From the NCBI GenBank assembly GCA_964016885.1, contig OZ024746.1, positions 54,746,001 to 54,810,000 of the forward strand: DNA of 64,000 nucleotides. The letters run 5' to 3'. This DNA comes from Eledone cirrhosa (lineage: Eukaryota). The translations under genes and the position numbers were made by a program. The notes beneath the pieces were generated by a model. The model was not told the DNA's origin and searched no databases. It saw nothing but the letters and a program-made list of their open reading frames with translations. Shown here piece after piece: positions 45,333-46,904 of this stretch; position 1 is the stretch's first letter, and each line of letters opens with the position of its first letter.

Positions 45333-45975
45333 ATCGAATGAGTTCAGTAGGCCAGGCGCACCGAAAAAGATAAATGGAATAGAATGAAACTAAATTTCAT
45401 TTCTCACTCTTAGTACGGCACTTATTTAAATGTAAGTATGTATGTATACGAAAAAAAAGGTGACGTGGTTGCCTAAACACTGTACGGATTAATTCAGGTT
45501 GTTTGTTTGTTTACAAACGAACAAACCGAGCATTATAATAAATGTTCGGTAAACTTATACGTGCATATATATATGTGTGCCTGTATGTATATATATATAC
45601 ATGCTACTGTACGTCTGTATACATATATATATGTACGTATACATACATACTTACATTTAAGTAAGTGAATAGAGGAAAGGTGTTTCCTCGAAAACCAGTA
45701 TGACTCTAAAAACCGGTTTGTCTGTGTGTTTACATACAGAATAGCTGGACACTCACAGTAAAGTGTCCAGTGAAAAACTCGGTACATCTACATATGTACA
45801 CGTGTGTGTATTCATATGCATACTAGTATTTCAGTATACATATGTGGATGTGCATTTTTAACTTAATTGTTTAAGCGTCAGTCATACAAAAGTGAGTTAC
45901 AAACGAAACGAAACTTAATTTCGTTTCGTTATTTGTTTTTATCGTCTCCGCTGAACCGGTACGTACTCACGCTCT

Positions 45976-46023
45976 ATGCAAATTAGTCTGCCCACTACTA
46001 ATTTTCATAGAAAAAGCATATAA
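45976..46023 (+). promoter_or_regulatory. Putative snRNA-type promoter cassette (repeated at 46441-46488)
   Basis: ATGCAAAT-15 nt-TAATTTTCATAGAAAAAG-CATATAA, about 25 nt upstream of the start of the extended ribozyme stem I. Confidence 0.5.
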
Positions 46024-46068
46024 CGATATGTGCTTTTACGATTCTCTAGAAAGGCCGGAAGATAGGTA

Positions 46069-46113
46069 AATATTGCTGATGAGATGTAACAACATCGAAA
46101 CTAGTCCAATATT
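46069..46113 (+). ncRNA. Type I hammerhead ribozyme
   Basis: aatattg CTGATGA GATGT-aaca-ACATC GAAAC-ta-GTC^caatatt: perfect core, 7 bp stem I, 5 bp stem II, predicted cleavage after 46106. Confidence 0.93.
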
Positions 46114-46532
46114 CCTGTCTGGCTTTCTGATGAATAGAGGAAAGGTGTTTCCTCGAAAACCAGTATGTCTCTAAAAACCGGTTTGTCTGTGTGTTTACAT
46201 ACAGAATAGCTGGACACTCACAGTAAAGTGTCCAGTGAAAAACTCGGTACATCTACATATGTACACGTGTGTGTATTCACATGCATACTAGTATTTCAGT
46301 ATACATATGTGGATGTACATTTTTAACTTAATTGTTTAAGCGTCAGTCATACAAAAGTGAGTTACAAACGAAACGAAATTTAATTTCGTTTCGTTATTTG
46401 TTTTTATCGTCTCCGCTGAACCGGTACGTACTCACGCTCTATGCAAATCAGTCTGCCCACTACTAATTTTCATAGAAAAAGCATATAACGATATGTGCTT
46501 TTACGATTCTCTAGAAAGGCCGGAAGATAGGT

Positions 46533-46577
46533 AATATTGCTGATGAGATGTAACAACATCGAAACTAGTCCAATATT
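46533..46577 (+). ncRNA. Type I hammerhead ribozyme (second unit)
   Basis: Identical to 46069-46113; predicted cleavage after 46570. Confidence 0.93.
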
Positions 46578-46863
46578 CCTGTCTGGCTTTCTGGAGAATA
46601 GAGGAAAGGTGTTTCCTCGAAAACCAGTATGACTCTAAAAACCGGTTTGTCTGTGTGTTTACATACAGAATAGCTGGACACTCACAGTAAAGTGTCCAGT
46701 GAAAAACTCGGTACATCTACATATGTACACGTGTGTGTATTCATATGCATACTAGTATTTCAGTATACATATGTGGATGTACATTTTTAACTTAATTGTT
46801 TAAGCGTCAGTCATACAAAAGTGAGTTACAAACGAAACGAAATTTAATTTCGTTTCGTTATTT

Positions 46864-46904
<41 letters not shown>

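What the first reader, a model, noticed from the sequence alone, without database searches (positions are those of the whole stretch)
45667..46868. Tandem 464 bp repeat with one intact hammerhead ribozyme per unit: candidate cephalopod retrozyme
Seen: 2.6 near-identical units. Each complete unit has a perfect type I hammerhead (CUGAUGA/GAAA/GUC) whose stem I extends further (agaaaggcc..agatagg pairs with cctgtct..ggctttct), and a very short palindromic stem III (AC-UA-GU). Known: metazoan non-LTR retrozymes and PLE-associated minimal hammerheads have this layout, cleave as dimers and yield monomeric linear and circular RNAs. Inference: read-through transcripts are cut after 46106 and 46570, releasing a 464 nt monomer that can circularise and be re-inserted by a PLE reverse transcriptase. 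This size is at or above the upper range I recall for animal retrozymes.
Basis: partly seen in the sequence, partly recalled or inferred. Interest (0 to 1): 0.88.

Follow-up and report, generated by a model that had tools for sequence, protein, structure and literature searches.

The report
Octopus ribozyme repeat, Penelope-made palindromes
A 464-base non-coding repeat carrying a predicted self-cutting hammerhead RNA occurs, with a related family, over 30,000 times in this probable octopus genome, largely as back-to-back arrays with the two fixed ends typical of Penelope-like retrotransposons, so it was likely copied from a small RNA circle by such an element's enzyme.

Summary
The 2.6-unit array and both hammerhead motifs are real. 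The element is an animal non-LTR retrozyme (family A, 464-469 nt). The three ribozyme-core patterns match 31,734 times genome-wide, with 0 control matches.

The new part is the insertion pattern. Copies sit in (TA)n, mostly as back-to-back palindromes. Outer ends fall at two fixed internal sites about 70 nt apart, not at the ribozyme cut; 47 of 47 two-armed loci carry one of each. Arms pass the cut site 280 times and never stop at it. An autonomous Penelope-like element (N1) in this genome leaves the same pattern, and one very young insertion has one N1 arm and one retrozyme arm.

Three haplotype cases point to a single-unit template read repeatedly, as a circle would be. Post-insertion duplication and conversion also occur and weaken this. 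Cleavage, expression and circles are untested; no RNA run was listed. Retrozymes and their Penelope link are published; this insertion pattern was not found in the papers searched.

The parts
45667..46871 (+). Family A retrozyme array: 5'-truncated unit (starts about 25 nt after a cut site), one complete 464-nt cut-to-cut monomer (46107-46570), and a last partial unit ending at the family's 'long' fixed end (position 301-302)
46049..46129 (+). Type I hammerhead 1 with extended stem I; core 46076-46106, predicted cut after 46106
46514..46593 (+). Type I hammerhead 2; core 46540-46570, predicted cut after 46570
46798..46871 (+). 'Tail' between the short (unit position 228-234) and long (301-303) fixed ends; the inferred two reverse-transcription start sites; contains a 13-bp hairpin
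44981..45450 (-). Family B retrozyme (442-nt unit, collinear homologue of A), left arm, ending at B's short fixed end in (TA)n
45207..45251 (-). Family B type I hammerhead; core starts at 45244, predicted cut between 45214 and 45213
   Evidence: not the minimum-energy fold of the 74-nt fragment
45450..45666 (+). Family B inverted arm (unit positions 22-235), joined directly to the 5' end of the A array
40340..44980 (.). (TA)n-type microsatellite, left target flank
46872..46898 (.). (TA)n, right target flank
34957..39412 (+). Decayed copy of Penelope-like element N1, the candidate partner family: inverted terminal repeat with short end, broken RT/GIY-YIG frame, terminal repeat with 58-nt tail, (TA)n on both sides, minimal hammerhead on the minus strand at about 35148

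Best explanation
This is a non-coding tandem repeat of the non-LTR retrozyme kind whose copies sit in (TA)n as back-to-back arrays with one short and one long fixed end; its transcripts are predicted to be cut by the hammerheads into monomers that likely circularise, and a Penelope-like RT-endonuclease, probably N1, likely copies the circle into new sites. Inferred steps: the enzyme cuts both strands of a (TA)n or AT-rich target about 12 nt apart. Each free 3' end primes at one of two internal sites about 70 nt apart on the same RNA. Both cDNAs roll round the template, through the ligated cut site, for a random distance. Their inner ends are then joined bluntly or by a few bases of inverted microhomology, giving an asymmetric palindrome. 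Arrays later change by block duplication and conversion. The ribozyme is under selection only at the transposition step. The window copy is a composite of an older family B palindrome and a younger A arm.
For: Ends: 123 of 135 arms in 79 loci end at unit position 228-234 or 299-303. All 47 of 47 divergent two-armed loci have one of each; family B 23 of 24. 104 of 123 ends run into (TA)n. In a sample not chosen by similarity, 20 of 28 loci are such palindromes. Read-through: 280 passages through the cut site and 0 stops at positions 1-3; 1 of 302 A cut-site junctions is disrupted. 44 of 47 palindromes have one simple junction and no two share it exactly. Partner: N1 shows the same pattern with a 58-nt tail (8 of 8 two-armed loci; 11 of 13 read) and has uninterrupted frames of 1049 and 1281 aa. 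Locus L011 has an N1 arm with the short end and an A arm with the long end; the N1 arm differs from another copy by 1 substitution in 1166 nt and the A arm has none away from the junction. Single-unit template: L036 carries a variant in 8 of 8 pieces on both arms with no singletons, and no other locus has it on that background. The mutation-free L115 has arms (2024 and 1726 nt) longer than any arm in the four other loci of its haplotype (1700 at most). A haplotype in one unit of the older L302 is in 4 of 4 units of L305. Selection: 7 of 13 ribozyme pairs change on both sides, 0 of 500 shuffles reach the score; inherited variants touch 99 of 466 positions but 0 of 11 core positions, while private mutations hit the core at the normal rate. 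Literature: a Penelope-like protein extends both target strands from two internal RNA sites, which explains the tail (PMC11167929).
Against: No RNA or cleavage data at all. In PMC11167929 ribozyme cleavage was not needed and unprocessed RNA was the main substrate. 8 of 9 Xenopus retrozyme dimers did not cleave in vitro. Arrays do change after insertion: period-4 duplications in L031, L032 and L324, out-of-register sharing between arms in L300 and L304, and 100 partly shared variants against 458 singletons, so homogeneity alone does not prove a circle. The three haplotype cases each assume the true parent is not simply missing from this assembly; L038's alternating variants have no parent. The 0-of-11 core result is not significant alone (about p = 0.07 by my arithmetic). 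The covariation test uses 9 related sequences from two lineages. There is a modest excess of 5' ends at positions 1-25 (13 against 6.4 expected, p = 0.014 uncorrected). N1's terminal repeat has no significant similarity to A or B. The chimera is a single case; none was found in 38 further young N1 loci, and two insertions plus a deletion could mimic it. The window's own B/A join probably arose that way.
Confidence: 0.62

Rival explanations
1. Same Penelope-like enzyme and two start sites, but the template is an uncleaved linear read-through transcript of a tandem array. Long homogeneous arms come from long source arrays and from later unequal crossing-over and conversion; the ribozyme only trims transcripts or acts late.
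For: Unprocessed RNA was the dominant substrate in vitro for the anole element. Unit-specific variants are shared in register by both arms in L035, L038, L048 and L083. Duplication and conversion after insertion are visible. Slight excess of 5' ends just after the cut site.
Against: L305 holds complete units of a haplotype that a linear copy of L302 could not supply, and L115 is longer than its possible parents. L036 is fixed in 8 of 8 pieces with no singletons, although singletons outnumber partly shared variants 458 to 100. With a median arm of 756 nt, linear copying should often carry a parent's inversion junction, yet 44 of 47 palindromes are simple and none repeats a junction exactly.
Confidence: 0.25
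2. The units are orphaned terminal repeats of a different, unsampled Penelope-like family. They move as truncated ends of that element and expand locally as satellites; N1 is a bystander.
For: The 2026 preprint found 24 of 57 Xenopus retrozyme families homologous to known elements, nearly all Penelope-like, and proposes local amplification. N1 shares no detectable sequence with A or B. My survey of other families covered only 30 loci of 10,596 first-look candidates.
Against: No A arm runs 5' into a coding frame in its own orientation in the loci examined; the only direct join to a coding element is the inverted N1 arm. Both arms of young loci are multi-unit and nearly mutation-free. None of the 30 other GIY-YIG loci had an A- or B-like downstream repeat.
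Confidence: 0.09
3. A DNA-level foldback element, or fold-back artefacts of the assembly; the hammerhead is incidental.
For: Long inverted arms resemble foldback elements. Some loci (L305, L307) show many single-base deletions that look like sequencing errors.
Against: The two outer ends are never the same position, which terminal inverted repeats would require. 12-13-nt target duplications flank L033 and L037. Contigs from public runs show both ends running into TA (these may be the assembly's own sample). Ribozyme stems covary.
Confidence: 0.04

Closest known systems
Animal non-LTR retrozymes (Cervera and de la Pena 2020, PMC7229834; parts 2-4 of 6 read, supplement not readable)
   Same: Non-coding tandem unit, one type I hammerhead per unit, weak stem III, low GC, highly self-paired monomer, thousands of copies, coexistence with Penelope-like elements. 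Circle-templated multimeric cDNA is their proposed model.
   Different: Unit 442-469 nt against about 170-400 nt. The main text has no occurrence of 'inverted', 'tail', 'microsatellite', 'octopus' or 'cephalopod'. They showed cleavage and circles experimentally; here neither is tested.
Li, Clavereau and Pollet 2026, bioRxiv 10.64898/2026.07.22.740005 (parts 1-3 of 5 read)
   Same: [quoted passage not shown]
   Different: Their evidence is co-occurrence and similarity to terminal repeats in vertebrates. Here similarity to the candidate partner is absent, and the link rests on insertion anatomy and a chimeric insertion, which they do not discuss.
Endonuclease-containing Penelope-like elements (Craig et al. 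2021, PMC8557442, passages; Arkhipova et al. 2013, PMC3846280, passages; Frangieh et al. 2024, PMC11167929, parts 1-2 of 4)
   Same: Inverted 5'-truncated copy, tail at one end only, AT-rich or (TA)n targets, two internal RT start sites, both target strands extended, trans-mobilisation of other sequences.
   Different: A and B encode no protein. Tails are about 57-74 nt rather than 30-40. Arms are tandem runs of a cyclic unit. The hammerhead is canonical rather than minimal.
MRC1 and other non-autonomous Chlamys elements of Chlamydomonas (passage in PMC8557442)
   Same: Non-autonomous Penelope-like elements with multicopy head-to-tail insertions.
   Different: They resemble their autonomous partners at the 3' end, and that clade mostly lacks canonical hammerheads.

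Membership tests
Non-LTR retrozyme | Type I hammerhead in each tandem unit, at least two consecutive | tested here: met
Non-LTR retrozyme | Small non-coding, low-GC unit | tested here: met
   No ORF of 120 aa or more overlaps 45667-46871; 170 of 466 bases are G or C. A primer-binding site was not searched for.
Non-LTR retrozyme | Dispersed, multi-copy, mobile | tested here: met
   1,633, 5,325 and 24,776 core matches, controls 0; many contigs
Non-LTR retrozyme | Highly self-paired monomer | tested here: met
   z = -8.9; circular folds of four variants -137 to -157 kcal/mol
Non-LTR retrozyme | Target duplications longer than 4 bp when present | tested here: inconclusive
   12-13 nt including priming microhomology at L033 and L037; most targets are pure TA and uninformative
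Non-LTR retrozyme | Self-cleavage in vitro | not testable with these tools
   Needs a bench assay
Non-LTR retrozyme | Expressed as linear and circular monomer RNA | not testable with these tools
   No RNA holder listed
Penelope-like insertion signature | Inverted 5'-truncated arm, tail on one end only, AT-rich or (TA)n target | tested here: met
   47 of 47, 23 of 24, 104 of 123
Penelope-derived retrozyme (Li et al. 2026) | Sequence similarity to a Penelope-like terminal repeat | tested here: inconclusive
   Not met for N1 or 30 other GIY-YIG loci; most families in the genome were not sampled
Autonomous Penelope-like element | RT plus GIY-YIG frame | tested here: not met
   The unit has no such frame; met by N1
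Rfam Hammerhead_HH9 (RF02275) | Gathering score 52 bits | tested here: not met
   33.7 and 30.8 bits

The most novel reading that the evidence does not exclude
These insertions are a genomic record of rolling-circle retrotransposition: a Penelope-like RT-endonuclease primes twice on one ribozyme-made RNA circle, once from each target strand at two dedicated sites, and the two active sites can even load different RNAs (one arm N1, one arm retrozyme). This would name the enzyme that moves an animal retrozyme that shares no detectable sequence with it, and would show that Penelope palindromes come from obligate paired priming.
Probability: 0.45. Interest if true: 0.82.

Novelty: new variant of a known kind. 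Interest (0 to 1): 0.64.

Why it matters
Which enzyme moves animal retrozymes, and whether the circle is really the template, has been a stated hypothesis since 2020 without mechanistic support in the papers I read. This genome supplies a young family, defined start sites, a defined target and an uninterrupted candidate enzyme, so the question can be tested in the published in vitro system. The strict one-short-one-long rule also constrains how Penelope-like elements integrate in general. Tens of thousands of ribozyme-bearing units in kilobase palindromes could be a large source of double-stranded RNA in a lineage known for heavy RNA editing (recalled, not tested here).

Tried and rejected
Expression: no RNA holder listed. 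All runs laid were contigs of unknown kind. A 496-nt cyclic contig in run X5 fits a tandem repeat as well as a circle and is not used as evidence.

Single-event B/A chimera in the window: first favoured, then downgraded to about 35-40%. The B arms differ from each other at 7 of 210 sites, the A units at 13 of 1018, so B is probably older. The join at B position 235 recurs in L052, which keeps re-priming possible.

End-to-end jumping between linear monomers: rejected, since junctions are exact and haplotypes are locus-uniform.

Partner by sequence: N1's terminal repeat scores no better than shuffles against A or B. The Pfam GIY-YIG search returned older families; higher alignment scores there appeared to come from TA tracts. 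A relaxed hammerhead pattern returned subfamily A2 instead of a partner. The 5.5-kb gap in L101 holds no coding frame.

Automated parent-daughter search: mostly noise from neighbouring insertions merged into one locus, and its output was cut; only L302 to L305 was taken from it. One search's count of 48 included one convergent pair (L081); 47 is the corrected figure. The '6-nt overlap' at the L011 junction was an alignment extension; the join is nearly blunt.

RNA-editing signature: inherited variants are enriched in A>G, but also in T>C, with no significant strand asymmetry.

A possible host exon at 47257-47412 found no relative. Pfam and PDB gave nothing useful for full-length N1. Rfam microRNA hits are TA-repeat noise. 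The bacterial promoter scan was uninformative.

Full report
Observation. The array is at 45667-46871, period about 465, 2.6 copies, 98% identical. Two hammerhead cores start at 46076 and 46540 and the predicted cuts follow 46106 and 46570. The described stems form in the predicted folds (z = -3.5 and -5.1) and the 464-nt monomer is far more stable than shuffles (z = -8.9). Rfam HH9 recognises both motifs below its curated threshold. I number the unit from the cut site (position 1 = 46107).

Directly upstream, 44981-45665 is a palindrome of a second unit (family B, 442 nt) with its own hammerhead on the minus strand at 45244. B aligns with A along its whole length (score 266, best of 100 shuffles 46). 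In the 3.0-Gb genome the exact A core matches 1,633 times, a subfamily pattern (A2) 5,325 times and the B pattern 24,776 times, each with 0 control matches. The genome is probably an octopod's: the best named relative of a neighbouring element's protein is labelled Octopus vulgaris at 69%.

The ribozyme is under selection. In 9 ribozyme variants from A and B, 7 of 13 pairs change on both sides and 95.7% of cells pair; 0 of 500 shuffles reach this and slid controls fall to 21-45%. The sequences are related, so this is not a probability. Across 101 loci, variants seen in three or more loci touch 99 of 466 positions but none of the 11 core positions; within the ribozyme they fall only at the variable position 7, one compensatory pair and loop II. 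Private mutations hit the core at the background rate (6 in 4,266 against 221 in 184,423 bases). The copies decay neutrally once inserted, and only those with an intact core seem to leave descendants. The core result alone is not significant.

Insertion anatomy. I mapped 79 A loci: about half were the best matches to the window unit, and 28 were simply the first loci on contig 1. Of 135 arms, 123 end at position 228-234 or 299-303; the other 12 were left out of the counts below. 104 of the 123 run into (TA)n. All 47 divergent two-armed loci have one short and one long end; 20 of the 28 unselected loci are of this kind. Family B has the homologous ends (about 229 and 286) and 23 of 24 two-armed loci obey the rule, among 34 examined. 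Inner ends are spread over the unit. Arms pass the cut site 280 times and never stop at positions 1-3, though 13 stop at 1-25 against 6.4 expected (uncorrected p = 0.014). Inner junctions overlap by two or more bases in 24 loci, are blunt or nearly so in 15 and carry inserts in 8. Duplications of 12-13 nt flank the few non-TA targets that could be read.

This is the signature of Penelope-like elements. Passages of PMC8557442 and PMC3846280 describe the inverted truncated copy, the 30-40-bp tail at one end and (TA)n targets. PMC11167929 shows that such a protein cuts and extends both target strands and starts at two internal RNA sites that delimit the tail.

Candidate partner. The window holds a decayed Penelope-like copy at 34957-39412 (N1; C-terminal GIY-YIG with a cysteine linker, Neptune or Nematis type, clade not resolved). 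The family is large (37,361 first-look candidates, which include relatives), has uninterrupted frames, and leaves the same palindromes with a 58-nt tail (8 of 8; 11 of 13 read, with one short-short and one long-long). Its terminal repeat is not detectably similar to A or B. Locus L011, however, has a short-ended N1 arm back to back with a long-ended A arm. The N1 arm belongs to a young subfamily and differs from another copy by 1 substitution in 1166 nt; the join is nearly blunt. One enzyme complex using two RNAs is the simplest reading. Two insertions plus a deletion cannot be excluded, and 38 further young N1 loci showed no second case.

Circle or linear template. Three cases favour a single unit read repeatedly. 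L036 has one variant in 8 of 8 pieces on both arms, no singletons, and no other locus with it on that background: 8 of 11 genome-wide matches are L036 and the other 3 lie on other haplotypes. L115 is mutation-free and its arms are longer than any arm in the four other loci with its haplotype. A four-variant haplotype sits in one unit of the more diverged L302, whose next unit lacks it, and in 4 of 4 units of L305; a linear copy of L302 could not give L305's structure. In addition, 44 of 47 palindromes lack any copied parental junction (three pairs of junctions are within 4 nt of each other, on different haplotypes or at a hairpin). Against this: arrays duplicate blocks and exchange sequence between arms after insertion, parents may be missing from one assembly, L038 has no parent, and the anole enzyme preferred uncleaved RNA in vitro. 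I put the circle at 0.62 and the linear template at 0.25.

The window copy. It reads short-ended B arm, inverted B arm to position 235, then an A arm to its long end. That obeys the short-long rule as one event, but the B arms differ from each other more than the A units do (7 of 210 against 13 of 1018) and B carries about 2.6% private changes. Two successive insertions into one TA tract with loss of the intervening part is somewhat more likely.

Shown and inferred. Shown by sequence: the repeat, motifs, copy numbers, fixed ends, palindromes, targets, covariation and one chimera. Inferred: transcription, cleavage, circularisation, paired priming, rolling, and N1 as the enzyme. No RNA run was listed, which is no evidence either way.

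Comparison and novelty. The element meets the sequence-level definition of a non-LTR retrozyme (PMC7229834), and the Penelope connection is argued in a 2026 preprint. Passages of PMC7761336 state that the partner and circle-templated cDNA are still a model; passages of PMC4209133 describe the palindromic stem III and dimer requirement. Eight literature searches and word searches in the two key papers found no description of this palindrome-and-tail pattern, of a chimeric insertion, or of a cephalopod family. The library omits most subscription papers and I could not read the supplements. An earlier unchecked note from this scan reports a tRNA-bearing repeat with a similar pattern in another genome, so the pattern may be general. 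Verdict: a new variant of a known kind, whose value lies in making the mobilisation mechanism testable.

Noticed in passing
window 34957-39412; L151, L268: Penelope-like family N1: very high copy number, young subfamily with uninterrupted frames, an asparagine/threonine/histidine-rich N-terminal stretch, an insertion between RT motifs A and B, and a frame that starts inside the terminal repeat just before the short end.
   Followed up: partly
window 56519-57661, minus strand: 380-aa frame with a GIY-YIG-like C terminus, resembling another Penelope-like clade (Hydra-like by recalled motifs); no Pfam hit.
   Followed up: no
window 8269-10195 (-), 51630-55201 (+), 59960-61665 (-): Decayed LINE-type fragments (RT, endonuclease, RNase H-like frames); names recalled from motifs, not tested.
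   Followed up: no
window 47257-47412, plus strand: GC-richer open stretch between splice-like signals, 390 nt downstream of the array. If it is an exon, the A array lies sense in an intron and would be transcribed with the host gene. No relative found.
   Followed up: partly
family A loci: Derived inherited variants are 15 of 44 A>G and 12 of 44 T>C, against 26 and 34 of 297 private ones. Could be selection on structure, copying errors or RNA editing of the template; strand asymmetry is not significant (p = 0.36).
   Followed up: partly
L080: A family B palindrome inserted inside the AT-rich part of an N1 terminal repeat, with a duplicated target.
   Followed up: partly
L096, L174, L251: Tiny palindromes made only of element ends (N1 about 70-270 nt; A under one unit), still with one short and one long end.
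   Followed up: no
L243, L247, L253, L262, L273, L277; spacings: Further B-related subfamilies (80-90% to B) with unit lengths of roughly 420-520 nt; the superfamily is older and broader than sampled.
   Followed up: no
L222, L257: Another, unrelated type I hammerhead haplotype seen in 6 fetched loci.
   Followed up: no
L165: An A2 palindrome between inverted trinucleotide-tailed ends of another retroelement rather than in (TA)n.
   Followed up: no
window 48440-48790: Degenerate 16-nt tandem repeat.
   Followed up: no
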